A DNA stretch of 64,000 nucleotides from the human T2T-CHM13v2.0 reference genome, Homo sapiens (GCF_009914755.1 NC_060939.1), one strand, 5' to 3'; counted from the first letter of the stretch, positions 2,668-14,221 are shown. A program made the numbers and translations. Notes: a model not told the origin generated them from the letters alone.

Positions 2668-2729
2668 TTAGGGCTTTATATCATCTTCTTCCTCTTCATG
2701 CTCTGCTTTCCTCTTTCTGGAAGGTTTAC
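2668..2729 (-). CDS. LEO1-like terminal exon 12': GKPSRKRKAEHEEEEDDIKP* if joined to exon 10'; VNLPERGKQSMKRKKMI* (stop 2678-2676) if joined to exon 11'
   Basis: Acceptor TTATTCAG|GT lies 4 nt downstream of the LEO1-equivalent acceptor; 45-nt in-frame deletion relative to LEO1 exon 12. Confidence 0.65.
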
Positions 2730-3264
2730 CTGAATAAATATGAGAGGTAAGACATAAAATTCAATATAAAATGTTTCTGGAAATTTTATCTAAAATGGTT
2801 CTGACCTGACAGTGAGGGAGCCAGCCCTTCACGTTAGAGCCCAGTTTCTCCACCCTTGGTAGCCAATGTGTGTCCCCACAGACACTGCCTAGATCAGGCA
2901 ACTGAACCTAGGTTTCCCCTGGGCAGTGGTCAGGGCTGAAGGGACACTTACTTTTTTTTTTTTTTGAGACAGAGTTTTGCTCATTTCCCAGATTGGAGTG
3001 CAGTGGCGCGATCTCGGCTCACTGCAACCTCGGCTCACTGCAACCTCCATGTCCTGGGTTCGAGCAGTTCTCCTGCCTCAGCCTCCCAAATAGCTGGGAT
3101 TCTAGGCATGCACCACCATGCCCGGCTAATTTTTGTATTTTTAGTAGAGATGGGTTTTCACCATGTTGGCCAGGCTGGTCTCGAACTCCTGACCTCAGGT
3201 GATCCGCCCGCCTCAGCCTCCCAAAGTGCTGGGATTACAGGCATGAACCACTGCACCCGGCCTA

Positions 3265-3740
3265 CATAGCATTTATATTGTATTATAAGTAATCTAGAGA
3301 AAATTTTTTGTTTTCAGACAGGGTCTTGCTCTGTTGCCCATGCTGGAACGCAGTGGCATGATGACGGCTCACTGCAGCCTCGACCTCCTAGGTTCCATTG
3401 ATCCTCCTGCCTAAGCTTCCTAAGTAGCTGGGACTACCTGTGCTCAGCTAATTTTTTATTTTATTTTATTTTATTTTATTTTATTTTATTTTTGTTGTTG
3501 TTGTTGTTGTTGTTGTATAGCTGGGGGTCTAATCTTGGTCTCAGGCTGGGCTCAAACGATCCGCCCGCCTCAGCCTCCCAAAGTGCTGGGCTCCCAAAGC
3601 ACCCAGCCTACAGATGATTTAAAGCATAGCTTATATGCAAATGTTAAACTATCTTATATAAGCAACTTGAGCACTTGTGGATTTTGGTGTCCTCTGAGTC
3701 CTGGAACCAATCTACCATGGATACTGAGGGACAACTGTGT
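3265..3740. mobile_element. MER2 (TcMar-Tigger) fragment split by an Alu
   Basis: gcatttatattgtattataagtaatctagaga...ggattttggt...ctggaaccaatc...atggatactgagggacaactgt. Confidence 0.7.
3455..3516 (+). repeat. (TTTTA)n + (TTG)n microsatellite in an Alu linker
   Basis: ttttattttatttta...tgttgttgttg. Confidence 0.9.
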
Positions 3741-5379
3741 GTTGTGTAGAGAGAGGAAAAAATAAATGAAAACACAGTGACCAATGTTGTCACTGCAGTG
3801 TTTTTCCTGTCTGTATCTCCAGAACCTAGAACACAGCATGTGTTCAGAAAACATTGAATGAATTAATATGGCCAATGGGCAATACCATAGTGATTCTCTT
3901 ATATAATTAATACTTAAGGCCAGGCACGGTGGCTCACGCCTGTAATCCCCACACTTTGGGAGGCCGAGACAGGCAGATCACTTGAGGCCCAGGAGTTTGA
4001 GACCAGCCTGGCCAACATGGCAAAACCCCATCTCTTCTAAAGATACAAAAAAAAAAAAAAAAAAAAAAATTAGCCGGGCATGGCGGTGCATGCCTGTAAT
4101 TTCAGTTACTCAAGTGGCTGAGGCACAAGAATTGCTTGAACCTGGGAGGTGGAGGTTGCAGTGAGCCAAGACTGTGCCACTGACTCTAGCCTGGGCAACA
4201 TAGCAAGACTGTCTCAAAATAAAATCAATAAATAAAAGACATAAAATGTATTTGTACTTGTGATCTTATAAAAGGAAGAGAAAACAATTAAAGGAAAATA
4301 TTTTCATAACAAATGAGATAACCCCTCAACTATTACATTGAAATAAAGACACCCAGTTTTAAGCCAGGCACCATAGCTCACGCCTGTAATCCCAGCACTT
4401 TGGGAGGCCAAGGTGGATGGATTGCTAGAGGCCAGGAGTTCAAGACCAGCCTGAGCAACGTAGTGAGACCCCTATCTCTACAAACCATTTTAAAAATTAG
4501 CCAAGCATGGTGGTGCATGCCTGTCGTTACAGCTACTCAGAAGGCTTTGGCAGGAGGATCACTTGAACCCATGAGATCGAGGCTGCAGTCAGCCATGATC
4601 ATGCCACTGCATTCCAGCCTGGGCAACAGAGCAAGACCCTGTCTTAAAAATAAAATAAAATTAAAGGCTGGGCGTAGTGGTGTCTCATGCCTGTAATCCC
4701 AGAACTTTGGGAGGCTGAGGCGGGAGGATCACTTGAGGTCAGGAGTTTGAGACCAGCCTGGCCAACATGGTGAAACCCCATCGCTACTAAAAAATACCAA
4801 AATTAGCCAGCCTTGGTGGCAGGCGCCTGTAATCCCAGCTACTTGGGAGGCTGAGGCAGGAGAATCACATGAACCTGGGAGGTGGAGGTTGCAGTGAGCC
4901 GAGATTGTGCCACTGTACTCCACCCTGGGTGACAGAGTGAGACTCCATCTCAAAAAAAATAAATAAATTTTAAAAGACACCCAGTTTCCCACAATGAACA
5001 TGGTAGATCACCTCTTGCTCTACCCATATGAAGCAATTCGTAGTTCTGTAGCCGAGACTTGATATCTCAGGCCCTGCACCTTTCTTTACAGGCCTTTCCA
5101 TCTTCCTAGAGTGCCTAACCTGGCCTGTGTGCTTGCAAGCTTCTGCTCATTCTTCAATACCCAGCAGAGACTTCCTCCTCCATGCAGCCTTCCAAGACCC
5201 ACCTGAGTACAGGTATCAGACCTTTGGGCCACTCCTAGTCCTACTGCTGCATTTATCTCACTGGATTTCAGTCAAGTGTGTAGACAGCTAATTTGTGCAT
5301 GCCTGGTCTGTGAGCTCTGTTCCCAGCAGTTGGCTCCTGAGTACAGGGTAAACTCAGAATTGAATACATTTGGTCTTAC

Positions 5380-5474
5380 TTCATCATTACTGAGTTTTTT
5401 TGCTCTCACTAATCTTTGAGTCTTATCTTCTGACCCCTCATCAGTGTCTGAGGAATAGATGCTGGCTTGTTCCT
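5380..5474 (-). CDS. LEO1-like exon 11' (EEQASIYSSDTDEGSEDKTQRLVRAKKLSNDE), possibly skipped
   Basis: Acceptor TTCAG|AG, donor GAA|GTAAGA; 95 nt (-3 vs LEO1). Confidence 0.65.
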
Positions 5475-11804: not shown

Positions 11805-11889
11805 CTTTAATTTTAACCTGATTCTGTCTTCCTCGTCAAGCACTTTCTCATCTTCAAATTCATCTTCATAAAACTGAGGATCAAAAGGT
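11805..11889 (-). CDS. LEO1-like exon 6' ([28 protein letters not shown])
   Basis: Acceptor TTTAG|A, donor AAG|GTACCA; 85 nt. Confidence 0.75.
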
Positions 11890-12929
11890 CTAAAAATTGT
11901 GTTTTTAACATCATGTTAGCCATATTTAGTAAGGAATATGATTAATATTATATTTAATCATCCCCACAATGTGCCTTCATGTGTTTCCAAAAATCACAGT
12001 AGACAAATAACTTCATGTAAACCTTCAAAGAAGTATGCAAATTACCATGCTTTCTGAAATTTGTCTCTAAAACATATTGCCTGAAATGAAATTCAAATGC
12101 AACTAACAATTCAAAATGTTATTTGATGAAATATGTCTTCCAAAGTATAGGCAACAGGTCTTACTGTCTTCCCTTATTTTTTAAGAAAATGTGTTAAGCA
12201 TAAGAGCTTGCATGCGTGTACCTTAGTGAATCATACCCACTGACACTATTTTGTAGTACAAAATAATTGTCTTTTCTAGATTCGCAATGGATTTTGCATT
12301 AAACATTTGTAATTTTTTTTTTTTTTTTAGACAGAGTCTCACTCTGTTACCCAGGCTGGAGTGCAGTGGCAGAACCTCGGCTCACTGCAACCTCCATCTG
12401 CTGGATTTAAGAGGTTCTTACGCCTCAGCCTCCCAAGTAGTTGGGATTACAGGCGTGCGCCACCATGCCTGGCTAATTTTTGTATTTTTAGTAGAGACAG
12501 GGTTTCACCATTTTGCCCAGGCTGGTCTCAAACTTCTGACCTCAAGTGATCTGCCCGCCTCAGCCTCCCAAAGTGGTGGGATTACAGGCATGAGCCACCG
12601 CACCTGGCCAGAACATTTGTGATTTCTCTAGCAGACTTTCTCACTCTTGTTTTCTGATTTGTCAGCTTTATACTAGTGAAAAACACCTTCATCCATTGTG
12701 ATCTGTTTATGTAAAAGAAAGTGCCAAAATGCTAGAAAAATTATTAGCATTAAAATTCTCTCTCACCAGTGATTCATTTTTCTACCACAGCACATCCTAG
12801 ATTTATATTTTTCAAAGTTATATGAGAAATTTCCCATCTTTGTGATTAGTCAACTCATGACAAATAAGAAAAAATATTTATTCTACGCATTTTTTTTAAT
12901 ATCTTGAAAATTTTAATCAGTCCTCTTAC

Positions 12930-13075
12930 TTGGGTTCTATACTGAGAAACTTGGGTAGTTTAACAAAATACAATTCATTTCCTAAATCAGAGTTGATACT
13001 GGGAATTTCTTCTTCTATTATGGTTTCAGAAATTGGCTCTTCCTCCTGCTGGTCCTGAGGCACTCCATGTTCATC
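12930..13075 (-). CDS. LEO1-like exon 5' ([48 protein letters not shown])
   Basis: Acceptor CTTAG|GAT, donor CAA|GTAAGA; 146 nt, no stop. Confidence 0.75.
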
Positions 13076-14126
13076 CTAAGAAAGGTATCAGAATGTGAGA
13101 GATTGAAGACATTAGAAATGTGCTAGCTTTACTCATCCTGCACTAGGCAGATGCAGGTTTGACGGGAAGTAAATTTTTTTTTTGATATGGAGTTTTCACT
13201 CTGTCACCCAGGCTGGAGTGCAGTGGCATGATCTCGGCTCGCTGCAACCTCCATCTCCCGGGTTCAAACCATTCTCCTGCCTCAGCCTCCTGAGTAGCTG
13301 GGATTACAGGCCCGTGCCACCAAGCCTGGCTAATTTCTGTATTTTTAGTAGAGACGGGGTTTCACCATGTTAGTCAAGCTGGTCTCAAACTCCTGACCTT
13401 AGGTGATGTGCCCACCTTGGCCTCCCAAAGTGCTGGGATTATAGGCGTGAGCCACCACCCCTGGTTGGGAAGTAAATTTACACTCCACTTTAGGGATAAA
13501 AGAGTCAGCAACTCTTCCAAGCTTCTCCCTAAAACCTCACCTCATGCCTACAAAAAAGCAAAACAGGCTGGGCGCGGATTACTGGCTCACGCCTGTAATC
13601 TTAGAGACTTCGTCTCAAAAAAAAAAAAAAAAAAAAAGGAAGACAAAACAAAACAAATAAAACACAGGAAAACAAGATCTGTTAGCCAACATTAGTAGAA
13701 AAAAGTATCTATTTTATTGACTTTTTTGCATAATATATTCAGCAACAGAAGTATGAAATTATTCACCCCATCAATACTAGACAACTATTAAAATCAGAAT
13801 ATCAGCATAGCTCATGCTTCTTGTCATAGGCTTGAATAAGAAAAAACTTTAAATCAAAGGTTTTTATATTACATATTAATTATATTTTTATATTATTTTA
13901 TATTAGTCTAGCCCCTAAAGTTTGGCATCACCCTTATTCTGGGTAGTTCCTTCTGTGCCTTCTTATATCCAGAAATTCCCAATATAGCTAAGAAAGTCAC
14001 CTATTCATCAGATGTTCAGCTATCCACGTCCTCTCTCAACATGAGAAAGACAGATTCATCAGCCTCTGAAGCTTTCTTTTTTAGCTTTGAATAATGGGAT
14101 TGGTTGATATTGGTGATCGTACTTAC

Positions 14127-14221
14127 AATCAGCTGTCCTGGAATAGGTGGTTGATTGCCCTCATCACTCTCAGAAGAAACGTCGTCTATATCTCCAAACA
14201 GATCCATGGTCCCACTAGGAT
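14127..14221 (-). CDS. LEO1-like exon 4' ([32 protein letters not shown]); candidate ATG at 14207
   Basis: Acceptor CGAAG|AT, donor ATT|GTAAGT; 95 nt as in LEO1; Kozak context GGGACCATGG. Confidence 0.75.

What the first reader, a model, noticed from the sequence alone, without database searches (positions are those of the whole stretch)
2668..14207. Hidden LEO1 paralog: an old tandem duplicate of exons 4-12 with an intact spliced ORF
Seen: nine exons colinear with LEO1 exons 4-12, with all 9 acceptor AG and 8 donor GT kept. There is no stop or frameshift across exons 4'-11'. Length changes are +3 (ex9'), -3 (ex10'), -3 (ex11') and an internal -45 (ex12'). There is a strong Kozak ATG (GGGACCATGG, 14207) and a homologous AATAAA (2565-2570). 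By my count exons 5'-9' are ~81% aa-identical to LEO1 (38 differences over 199 aa). The introns are much more diverged and carry different Alu insertions from LEO1, so the duplication is old. Inference: an old copy free of selection would normally have picked up frame or splice breaks over ~1 kb, so this may be, or until recently have been, a protein-coding gene. It would make a 308/337-aa LEO1 variant with the Leo1 domain but without the ~310-aa acidic N-terminus, i.e. a candidate alternative PAF1C subunit. Caveats: it may already be annotated as a pseudogene; the conserved WSDGS motif is WSDRS here; exon 7' has 4 nonsynonymous vs 2 synonymous changes (exon 8' has 7 vs 10).
Basis: partly seen in the sequence, partly recalled or inferred. 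Interest (0 to 1): 0.92.

Follow-up and report, generated by a model that had tools for sequence, protein, structure and literature searches.

The report
Conserved truncated LEO1 paralog, labelled pseudogene
Next to human LEO1 lies a partial copy, filed as a pseudogene, that is the intact human version of a shorter LEO1-like gene kept across placental mammals, so it may encode an unstudied partner of the PAF1 transcription complex.

Summary
Nine exons colinear with LEO1 exons 4-12 lie at 2549-14221 (minus strand). All AG/GT sites are kept. The frame is open from ATG 14207, giving 337 aa, or 308/311 aa if exon 11' is skipped.

The locus is RefSeq LOC100422556, a "transcribed pseudogene". Database searches change how it should be read:
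- 53 protein clusters from 47 named placental taxa in 8 orders are "LEO1-like" models of about 280-400 aa that are closer to this copy than to LEO1.
- They form one clade (100/100) that branches after the marsupial split and follows the species tree.
- 80 of 275 columns are invariant across 32 species.
- 17 paralog-specific residues are conserved, and human has all 17.
- The Leo1/PAF1-binding domain evolves about three times slower than the flanks. Human and baboon differ at 4 of 167 domain residues and 12 of 121 flank residues.

Neutral decay since birth is rejected, and so is upkeep by gene conversion.

Human expression of exons 4'-8', translation and PAF1 binding are unshown. I found no paper on a mammalian LEO1 paralog.

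Verdict: a conserved placental paralog whose human copy is intact and probably still coding.

The parts
14127..14221 (-). Exon 4' (95 nt, same length as LEO1 exon 4). It holds the start codon at 14205-14207 in GGGACCATGG, and its acceptor AG is kept.
   Evidence: The first 14 residues are nearly invariant across the paralog family, with paralog-specific D6 and I7.
12930..13075 (-). Exon 5' (146 nt), where the Leo1 domain begins.
   Evidence: 77.6% nucleotide identity to LEO1 exon 5 with flanks; AG and GT kept.
11805..11889 (-). Exon 6' (85 nt).
   Evidence: 79.1% identity; AG and GT kept.
10374..10468 (-). Exon 7' (95 nt). It encodes the strand that pairs with PAF1 in LEO1: K442 equivalent kept, WSDGS changed to WSDRS.
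   Evidence: On its own it matches Pfam Leo1 at 39.5 bits against a cut-off of 27.
9341..9475 (-). Exon 8' (135 nt), the Leo1 domain core.
   Evidence: Pfam Leo1 at 29.2 bits against a cut-off of 27. This exon was the query that found the orthologs.
7636..7774 (-). Exon 9' (139 nt, +3). The annotated RNA NR_109775.1 begins inside it at 7716 and shares its donor.
6312..6504 (-). Exon 10' (homologous donor after 6321, 184 nt, -3). NR_109775.1 uses a second GT 9 nt further on (exon end 6312), which stays in frame.
5380..5474 (-). Exon 11' (95 nt, -3). It is a cassette exon: including or skipping it sets the reading frame of exon 12'.
   Evidence: 15 ortholog models include it and 12 skip it.
2549..2729 (-). 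Exon 12' with the 3' UTR. The acceptor is moved 4 nt relative to LEO1. The stop is at 2676-2678 (with exon 11', short basic tail) or 2668-2670 (without exon 11', LEO1-like acidic tail). AATAAA lies at 2565-2570.
   Evidence: The stop coordinates are counted by hand from the exon sequence printed.
2546..14277 (-). Detectable extent of the duplicated segment. It corresponds to LEO1 from 58 nt inside intron 3 to the poly(A) site, and the introns are retained.
   Evidence: Unique colinear intron matches at 65-80% identity.
19651..19845 (-). A lead only: a candidate non-coding 5' exon of the paralog. It is homologous to the first exon of a mouse-lemur model, has a CAG|GTATGA donor, has a stop in the lemur frame, and lies beside RefSeq enhancers at 19391-19610.
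   Evidence: tblastn at 54% identity over 50 aa, E 3e-9.

Best explanation
This is the human ortholog of a gene shared by placental mammals, here called LEO1-like.

Origin (shown). A tandem duplication copied LEO1 from intron 3 to its 3' end. It happened on the placental stem, after the split from marsupials.

Selection (shown). The copy has been kept as an open reading frame in many lineages. Purifying selection is concentrated on the Leo1 domain.

The human copy (shown). It keeps the full frame, all splice signals, the start codon and the poly(A) signal, and it is transcribed at least over exons 9'-12'.

Mechanism (inferred). It makes a protein of 337 or 308/311 aa that begins at the methionine equivalent to LEO1 M312. 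The protein pairs with PAF1 through the same beta-strand region that LEO1 uses (residues 370-462). It lacks LEO1 residues 1-311, which is most of the region that Chu et al. found necessary for histone H3 binding. It ends in one of two short tails, chosen by skipping or including exon 11'. It would therefore form an alternative PAF1 complex or a competing PAF1 heterodimer, probably in a restricted tissue.
For: Structure and frame:
- Exon copies, splice sites and the open frame are all present.
- Under neutrality, 6 of 2400 simulated copies stay free of stops.
- There are 3 exonic indels, all in frame. The alignable introns have 109 gap events in 2043 sites, only 9 of them multiples of three.

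Orthologs:
- 53 database clusters carry the paralog-type motif. They come from 47 named taxa in 8 orders, including two tenrecs.
- No name shown carries 'LOW QUALITY PROTEIN'.
- The Eulemur model is 337 aa with the same start and end as the human frame.
- The paralog clade has 100/100 support. Paralog plus placental LEO1 has 100/99 against marsupial, platypus, turtle and bird LEO1. Orders are recovered inside the paralog clade.
- At 3 of the 4 sites where placental LEO1 differs from the other LEO1s, most paralogs share the placental state.

Constraint:
- 80 of 275 columns are invariant on a paralog tree of 3.70 changes per site.
- 154 columns are at least 90% conserved. At 17 of these the conserved state differs from LEO1, and human has all 17.
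- Domain tree length is 2.13 and flank tree length is 6.2.
- Human and Papio differ at 16 positions, 4 in the 167 domain residues and 12 in the 121 flank residues, binomial P 0.008.
- Human and chimp differ at 3 of 288 positions.

Domain and transcript:
- Pfam Leo1 scores 168.5 bits for the chimp ortholog, which is 99% identical to human.
- LEO1 370-462 is 80/93 identical in the human copy, with K442 kept. Chu et al. 2013, PMC3905892 (section 16 and other passages read), show that this region and this lysine contact PAF1.
- NR_109775.1 is open in this frame from its first base. It looks like a 5'-incomplete cDNA of the exon-11'-skipping form.
Against: - RefSeq curators call the locus a pseudogene.
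- The only annotated human RNA lacks exons 4'-8'. No promoter or CpG island is evident upstream of exon 4'.
- Catarrhines changed the otherwise invariant WSDGS to WSDRS, right beside the PAF1-contacting strand.
- Anthropoid models (Papio, Macaca, Callithrix, Plecturocebus, Pan) end by reading into intron 10' or in another exon, not in exons 11'/12'.
- The flanks evolve about as fast as I would expect for neutral DNA. That neutral rate is recalled, not taken from a call.
- Pairwise dN/dS of 0.27 lies inside the neutral simulation range.
- On the lineage from the anthropoid ancestor to human alone, parsimony gives 8 domain and 10 flank changes (P 0.18). For hominoids since the Old World monkey split it gives 2 and 5 (P 0.12).
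- The rhinoceros model reads exon 10' in another frame. No muroid, marsupial or monotreme paralog appears in the 120-row lists, so the gene may be dispensable.
- Only species that have a protein model can appear at all, which is an ascertainment bias.
- I found no peptide, expression or literature evidence.
Confidence: 0.6

Rival explanations
1. A dying gene. The family is a real conserved placental gene, but the human (or hominoid) copy has recently lost its function. It is now a transcribed unprocessed pseudogene, as annotated, and has simply not yet been hit by a disabling mutation.
For: - RefSeq labels it a pseudogene, and the annotated RNA covers only exons 9'(part)-10'-12' (hub table).
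- Catarrhines carry G-to-R in WSDGS.
- Anthropoid models have aberrant 3' ends.
- Exon 11' differs from LEO1 at 8 residues plus one codon deletion in human, against 3 in Eulemur (read).
- Tests confined to the human lineage are underpowered (P 0.12 and 0.18).
- Loss within the last few million years would leave an intact frame with fair probability.
Against: - The frame, 17 splice dinucleotides, ATG and AATAAA are all intact.
- Only one human-specific residue change has occurred since the chimp split, in 288 residues.
- Since the Old World monkey split the hominoid line changed 2 of 167 domain residues. About 12-13 would be expected for neutral DNA, using the target size and a recalled divergence of about 6.5% between human and macaque.
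- Human and Papio together show 4 domain and 12 flank differences, P 0.008.
Confidence: 0.27
2. An alternative 3' exon set of LEO1. The duplicated exons work mainly through read-through transcripts from the LEO1 promoter that splice LEO1 exons onto exons 4' or 8' onwards. The result would be LEO1 isoforms with a different C-terminal half, not a separate gene.
For: - The copy lies directly downstream of LEO1 on the same strand, with phases identical to LEO1.
- A chimp model joins LEO1 exons 1-7 to exon 8' onwards (P0129), and a bat model fuses LEO1 to the copy (P0003).
- The acceptor of exon 4' is conserved.
Against: - Most models start at the shared methionine or in short upstream sequence. 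A lemur model uses its own 5' exon, which maps between the two genes.
- The first 14 residues after the methionine carry conserved paralog-specific states.
- The bat fusion reads exon 4' out of frame.
Confidence: 0.08
3. A plain unprocessed pseudogene that has been neutral since the duplication. Its open frame is luck, or is maintained by gene conversion from LEO1, or the exons are conserved for an RNA-level or regulatory role.
For: - It is a truncated copy without exons 1-3 or the LEO1 promoter.
- Pairwise dN/dS of 0.27 is within the neutral simulation range.
- Exon 7' has unusually low synonymous divergence, 2 differences in 18.5 sites. That could hint at a conversion tract.
Against: - 6 of 2400 neutral runs lack stops.
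- All 3 exonic indels are in frame, against 9 of 109 in introns.
- Open frames exist in 47 taxa.
- 80 of 275 columns are invariant on a 3.7-change tree.
- 17 conserved residues differ from LEO1, and conversion would erase them.
- Synonymous divergence from LEO1 is high: pS 0.38, and 18 of 82 four-fold sites differ.
- The domain-versus-flank rate contrast is a protein-level pattern.
Confidence: 0.03

Closest known systems
Human LEO1 (PAF1 complex subunit; PDB 6TED chain U, 4M6T)
   Same: It is the parent gene, 7.4 kb upstream on the same strand. Exon structure and phases are the same for exons 4-12. The Leo1 domain (Pfam PF04004) is present. 237 of 324 residues are identical over exons 4-11, and 80 of 93 in the PAF1-binding region, with K442 kept.
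   Different: It lacks LEO1 residues 1-311, the acidic N-terminal part that Chu et al. 2013 tie to histone H3 binding. The exon 12' acceptor is moved 4 nt, 45 nt are deleted, and there are two alternative short tails. At the protein level, placental LEO1 branches are 0-0.007 changes per site, against 0.19-0.33 from crown to tip for the paralog.
'RNA polymerase-associated protein LEO1-like' models of other placental mammals (for example Eulemur P0172, Balaenoptera P0140, Ovis P0153)
   Same: They are orthologs. They share the start, the exon set, 17 paralog-specific conserved residues and both tail forms, and they form one 100/100 clade with the human frame.
   Different: They are automatic predictions filed as protein-coding, whereas the human locus is curated as a transcribed pseudogene. 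Catarrhines carry WSDRS instead of WSDGS.
Drosophila testis PAF1 paralog complex (tPAF: Paf1L, Leo1L, Cdc73L, Ctr9L), Vilstrup et al. 2024, PMC11535153 (passages read)
   Same: It is a duplicated Leo1 that pairs with a Paf1-type partner and serves cell-type-specific transcription, and so is a precedent for paralogous PAF1C subunits.
   Different: Its origin is independent. Flies duplicated the whole core set and the paralogs do not mix with the canonical subunits. Here only a LEO1 copy was looked for and found, it is N-terminally truncated, and its tissue and partners are unknown.
Unprocessed (duplicated) pseudogene, the current RefSeq class of LOC100422556
   Same: It is a partial tandem copy with retained introns. 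It lacks the parent's first three exons and promoter, and it is transcribed.
   Different: It has no stop, frameshift or splice-site lesion. It shows conserved orthologous frames and domain-specific constraint.

Membership tests
Leo1 family (Pfam PF04004) / PAF1C subunit LEO1 | Leo1 domain match above Pfam's gathering score | tested here: met
   The chimp ortholog P0127 (3 differences from human in 288 aa) scores 168.5 bits against a cut-off of 27, over profile positions 1-163 of 165. Human exons 7' and 8' alone score 39.5 and 29.2 bits. The spliced human protein itself was not submitted.
Leo1 family (Pfam PF04004) / PAF1C subunit LEO1 | PAF1-binding beta-strand region (LEO1 370-462, K442 salt bridge to PAF1 E203; Chu et al. 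2013) | tested here: met
   At sequence level only: 80 of 93 residues are identical in human. K442 is kept, and it was invariant in the 16-sequence alignment. G446 is R in catarrhines.
Leo1 family (Pfam PF04004) / PAF1C subunit LEO1 | Physical association with PAF1 and the PAF1 complex | not testable with these tools
Given 86% identity to a solved interface, a pass would mostly reflect likeness to the known structure.
Leo1 family (Pfam PF04004) / PAF1C subunit LEO1 | Long acidic N-terminal region (human LEO1 1-369), needed for histone H3 binding | tested here: not met
   No copy of exons 1-3 is present. The frame starts at the equivalent of M312 with an in-frame stop 14 codons upstream. Only residues equivalent to 312-369 remain.
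Placental 'LEO1-like' orthologous group | Paralog-specific conserved residues and placement inside the paralog clade | tested here: met
   Human has all 17 of the 17 states that are at least 90% conserved in the paralog and differ from LEO1. It sits with Pan, Papio and the New World monkeys inside a 100/100 clade.
Placental 'LEO1-like' orthologous group | Same start, exon set and stop as full-length orthologs | tested here: met
   The 337-aa human frame matches the 337-aa Eulemur model. 15 models run from the shared start to the basic tail, and 12 use the exon-11'-skipping acidic tail, as does human NR_109775.1.
Unprocessed pseudogene | Disabling lesions (stop, frameshift, lost splice site or start) | tested here: not met
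   None is present in 1014 nt of coding sequence, 17 splice dinucleotides or the ATG.
Unprocessed pseudogene | Neutral evolution | tested here: not met
   For the family: 80 of 275 columns are invariant, and the domain tree length is 2.13 against 6.2 for the flanks. For catarrhines: 4 domain and 12 flank differences between human and Papio. For the human branch alone the test is inconclusive.
Unprocessed pseudogene | Incomplete copy of the parent without its promoter | tested here: met
   The duplication starts 58 nt upstream of exon 4 in intron 3.

The most novel reading that the evidence does not exclude
Placental mammals, humans included, make a second, N-terminally truncated LEO1. It takes LEO1's place on PAF1 and yields a PAF1 complex without the acidic, histone-H3-binding arm. 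It has two switchable C-terminal tails, one basic and one acidic, read from the same exon in two frames. The human gene has been overlooked because it is filed as a pseudogene.
Probability: 0.45. Interest if true: 0.8.

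Novelty: new member of a known kind. Interest (0 to 1): 0.7.

Why it matters
PAF1C is a core regulator of RNA polymerase II elongation, histone modification and termination, and in mammals it is treated as having a single LEO1. A conserved LEO1 variant that keeps the PAF1-binding domain but lacks the acidic N-terminal arm would be a natural separation-of-function form. It could compete with LEO1 or define a tissue-specific complex, as the independently evolved testis PAF1 complex does in Drosophila.

The finding is also a concrete case where a pseudogene label on a partial duplicate may hide a gene. Such loci are usually excluded from coding-potential, Ribo-seq and proteomics searches. 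The claim can be tested directly with existing public data and simple pull-downs.

Tried and rejected
- **Pairwise dN/dS (0.27, bootstrap 0.19-0.39).** I first read this as constraint. The simulation shows that a neutral copy beside an unchanging LEO1 gives 0.33-0.41, so I dropped it as a main argument.
- **Intron divergence as a neutral yardstick (p 0.206).** Rejected. Only the BLAST-detectable, best-conserved 2043 intron sites could be aligned, so it understates divergence. Four-fold sites (18 of 82) are few and are conditioned on conserved codons.
- **The first tree.** It included non-homologous C-terminal read-through sequence from the anthropoid models and inflated their branches. The careful search also did not finish. 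I rebuilt the tree on columns up to the end of exon 10'.
- **Rows left out.** One unnamed row (P0160) was dropped before the fixed-topology fit. Tenrec P0134 and the partial models (Nomascus, Macaca, Pygathrix, Diceros, Dama, Moschus and others) were left out.
- **Parsimony polarisation on the anthropoid-to-human path.** It is noisy: at least positions 193 and 199 are doubtful calls. It is not significant.
- **Chimp alternative last exon.** tblastn found it nowhere in the window.
- **Complex prediction with PAF1.** Not sent. No PAF1 sequence was available in an accepted form, and the pair would pass by likeness to the solved LEO1-PAF1 structure.
- **Structure prediction.** Not run, since sequence identity to solved LEO1 chains already answers the fold question.
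- **Literature.** LOC100422556, NR_109775, LEO1L, LEO1P1, 'LEO1 pseudogene', 'LEO1 paralog', three predicted peptides, and LEO1 with tandem duplication/placental/testis gave nothing on a mammalian paralog. Supplementary tables were not searched.

Full report
**1. What is in the window**

Joining the listed LEO1 exons without the extra exon of NR_189743.1 gives an intact 666-aa LEO1. I blasted each LEO1 exon with 60-nt flanks against window 1-20000. This finds one colinear copy each of exons 4 to 12, at 69.7-89.3% identity, and nothing for exons 1-3.

Exon-by-exon alignment places the copies on the minus strand as follows:
- e4' 14127-14221
- e5' 12930-13075
- e6' 11805-11889
- e7' 10374-10468
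- e8' 9341-9475
- e9' 7636-7774
- e10' 6321-6504
- e11' 5380-5474
- e12' 2549-2729

Lengths equal those of LEO1 except +3, -3 and -3 in e9', e10' and e11'. Every acceptor AG and donor GT is kept.

The spliced frame is open from an ATG at 14207 (GGGACCATGG, in-frame stop 14 codons upstream) into exon 12', giving 337 aa. Skipping exon 11' gives 308 aa, or 311 aa with the second donor that NR_109775.1 uses. AATAAA lies at 2565-2570.

Exon 12' has its acceptor moved 4 nt and a 45-nt internal deletion. With exon 11' it is therefore read in a new frame that ends in a short basic tail. Without exon 11' it is read in the LEO1 frame and ends in an acidic tail.

The detectable duplication runs from about 2546 to 14277. 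Introns are retained, and the alignable parts are 65-80% identical. In the whole T2T assembly only this copy and LEO1 match exon 8'.

**2. Is the open frame more than chance, judged from the window alone?**

The pairwise Nei-Gojobori dN/dS is 0.27 (bootstrap 0.19-0.39), with dS 0.525. I simulated a neutral copy beside a LEO1 that accepts only synonymous changes. That gives a ratio of 0.33-0.41 (2.5th percentile 0.23-0.29). The observed value is therefore not decisive.

Three other window-only signals are decisive:
- **Stops.** The same simulations give 5-8.5 expected stop codons, and only 6 of 2400 runs have none.
- **Indels.** The exons carry three indels, all multiples of three. The alignable introns carry 109 gap events in 2043 sites, of which 9 are multiples of three.
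- **Splice sites.** All 17 splice dinucleotides survive.

The intron p-distance (0.206) and the four-fold-site distance (18 of 82) probably understate the age, because only the best-conserved intron pieces could be aligned.

**3. Relatives elsewhere**

LEO1 exon 8 is 100% identical from sharks to human. Searching with the paralog's exon 8', and then with a profile of first hits, returns many proteins named 'LEO1-like' that are closer to the paralog than to LEO1.

Of 261 stored proteins, 54 carry the paralog-type motif in place of LEO1's. One is the human exon itself, which leaves 53 database clusters. Three are unnamed. The rest come from 47 named taxa: primates, a colugo, squirrels, artiodactyls including whales, carnivores, bats, a rhinoceros and two tenrecs.

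No name shown carries NCBI's 'LOW QUALITY PROTEIN' prefix. Fifteen models run from the shared start to the basic tail, among them a 337-aa Eulemur model. Twelve use the exon-11'-skipping acidic tail.

In both tenrec species, LEO1 and LEO1-like are reported from contigs of identical length. A bat model fuses the two genes. Both facts are consistent with a conserved tandem arrangement.

**4. Phylogeny and age**

I built a tree on columns up to the end of exon 10' (43 rows, 286 columns, LG+G4, 1000 ultrafast bootstraps).
- The paralogs form one clade with 100/100 support.
- Paralogs plus placental LEO1 are separated from marsupial, platypus, turtle and bird LEO1 at 100/99.
- Anthropoids, carnivores, bats, artiodactyls and squirrels are each recovered inside the paralog clade.

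There are four sites where four placental LEO1s differ from four non-placental ones. At three of them most paralogs share the placental state (20, 25 and 30 of 31). At the fourth, 7 share it and none has the older state.

So the duplication happened once, on the placental stem, and the copies are orthologs. No marsupial, monotreme or muroid paralog appeared in the 120-row lists, which is weak evidence of absence.

**5. Constraint**

On the accepted species topology:
- the stem of the paralog clade is 0.20 changes per site;
- crown-to-tip paths are 0.19-0.33 (human 0.235);
- placental LEO1 paths are 0-0.007.

The paralog tree totals 3.70 changes per site, yet 80 of 275 columns are invariant and 154 are at least 90% conserved. 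In 17 of those the conserved state differs from LEO1, and human has all 17. This rules out upkeep by gene conversion from LEO1.

I then split the alignment:

| Measure | Leo1 domain (human paralog residues 57-223) | Flanks |
|---|---|---|
| Tree length | 2.13 | 6.2 |
| Crown to human | 0.106 | 0.439 |
| Anthropoid ancestor to human | 0.032 | 0.132 |

Human and Papio differ at 16 positions, 4 in the 167 domain residues and 12 in the 121 flank residues (binomial P 0.008). Human and chimp differ at 3 of 288 positions, and only one of these changes lies on the human branch.

One search gives this coding sequence's own mutational target: 2.1-2.2 residue changes per codon per nucleotide substitution per site. 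With a recalled human-macaque divergence of about 6.5%, neutral DNA would give about 23 domain differences where 4 are seen.

Tests restricted to the human line are underpowered. Hominoids since the monkey split show 2 domain and 5 flank changes (P 0.12). Parsimony from the anthropoid ancestor gives 8 and 10 (P 0.18). From the primate ancestor it gives 12 and 18 (P 0.036).

**6. What it probably does**

The chimp and lemur orthologs match Pfam Leo1 over nearly the whole profile (168.5 and 183.9 bits against a cut-off of 27). Human exons 7' and 8' pass the cut-off on their own. The lemur ortholog aligns to residues 312-641 of the solved human LEO1 chain (6TED and others) and to the LEO1 part of 4M6T.

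Chu et al. 2013 (PMC3905892; section 16 and other passages read) report three relevant points:
- LEO1 370-462 binds PAF1 161-250 through an antiparallel sheet.
- K442 bridges to PAF1 E203.
- LEO1 1-369 is needed for histone H3 binding.

The human paralog is 80/93 identical in 370-462 and keeps K442. Catarrhines have R for G446 in the neighbouring WSDGS motif. The paralog lacks LEO1 1-311.

The inference is a LEO1 stand-in on PAF1 without the acidic arm, carrying one of two tails. Drosophila offers an independent precedent for paralogous PAF1C subunits with a cell-type-specific role (PMC11535153, passages read).

**7. Human status**

The RefSeq RNA NR_109775.1 uses the e9' donor, the e10' acceptor, a donor 9 nt past the homologous one, and the e12' acceptor. 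It is open in the paralog frame from its first base, so it looks like a 5'-incomplete cDNA of the skipping isoform.

Against a working human gene:
- no annotated RNA includes exons 4'-8';
- no CpG island or evident promoter is present;
- catarrhines carry the WSDRS change;
- anthropoid models end in intron 10' or elsewhere;
- the rhinoceros model has a shifted frame, which suggests the gene can be lost.

A mouse-lemur 5' exon maps to human 19651-19845, where a good donor is kept but the lemur frame is closed. I treat that as a lead for the promoter.

**8. Literature and novelty**

Searches for the locus and transcript names, LEO1L, LEO1P1, 'LEO1 pseudogene' or 'LEO1 paralog', three predicted peptides, and LEO1 with tandem duplication, placental or testis found nothing on a mammalian LEO1 paralog. 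A 2026 survey of elongation-factor evolution has no mention of paralogs or pseudogenes of LEO1 in its main text (PMC13289920, term search only). Supplements were not searched.

The locus and the ortholog models are in databases, so the object is not unknown. New here is its reading as a conserved placental gene whose human copy is intact.

**9. Verdict**

My confidences are:
- 0.6 that the human copy is still a coding gene of this family;
- 0.27 that it is a recently relaxed gene;
- 0.08 that it serves mainly as an alternative exon set of LEO1;
- 0.03 that it was never under protein-level selection.

The neutral branch lengths and the human-macaque divergence used for expectations are recalled values, not tool results.

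Noticed in passing
window 21644-55416 (LEO1): The hub table types LEO1 as 'transcribed_pseudogene' and shows NR_189743.1. That transcript has an extra exon at 25124-25221 and gives a 645-aa frame with a different end. Without that exon the window encodes an intact 666-aa LEO1. The label looks like an artefact of the transcript chosen.
   Followed up: partly
window 2549-2729 (exon 12'): The same exon is read in two frames depending on exon 11'. One gives a basic tail and the other an acidic LEO1-like tail. Both tails recur across orders, in 15 and 12 models. Whether both frames are under selection needs nucleotide alignments.
   Followed up: partly
P0129 (Pan) and P0003 (Rhinolophus sinicus): These are chimeric gene models. 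The chimp model joins LEO1 exons 1-7 to paralog exon 8' onwards. The 919-aa bat model joins LEO1 to the paralog, reading exon 4' out of frame. They suggest read-through transcription from LEO1 into the paralog.
   Followed up: partly
window 19651-19845, minus strand: This stretch is homologous to the first exon of a mouse-lemur LEO1-like model. A donor CAG|GTATGA is kept, the lemur reading frame is closed by a stop in human, and RefSeq enhancer elements lie next to it at 19391-19610. It may be the 5' exon or promoter of the paralog.
   Followed up: partly
window 7716 / 7817: The 5' end of NR_109775.1 (minus strand, inside exon 9') and the start of lncRNA LOC112268148 (plus strand) lie 101 nt apart, head to head. 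Either there is an internal bidirectional promoter, or the NR cDNA is 5'-incomplete.
   Followed up: no
LEO1 protein from the window; paralog residues 1-15: A short acidic D/E-L-F-G motif occurs three times in LEO1: near residues 6, 61 and 313. The paralog starts exactly at the third one. Its first 14 residues are nearly invariant across the family, although the rest of exon 4' evolves fast.
   Followed up: no
P0157 (Diceros bicornis minor): The rhinoceros model reads the exon 10' region in a different frame from all the others. This suggests a frameshift or a mis-splice, so the gene may be lost there.
   Followed up: no
window 12313-12611 and 42641-42941: Alu-like repeats sit in intron 5' of the paralog and intron 5 of LEO1, but on opposite sides of the unique homologous segment (12057-12280 matching 42957-43190). 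They are therefore independent insertions, as expected for a duplication older than primates.
   Followed up: partly
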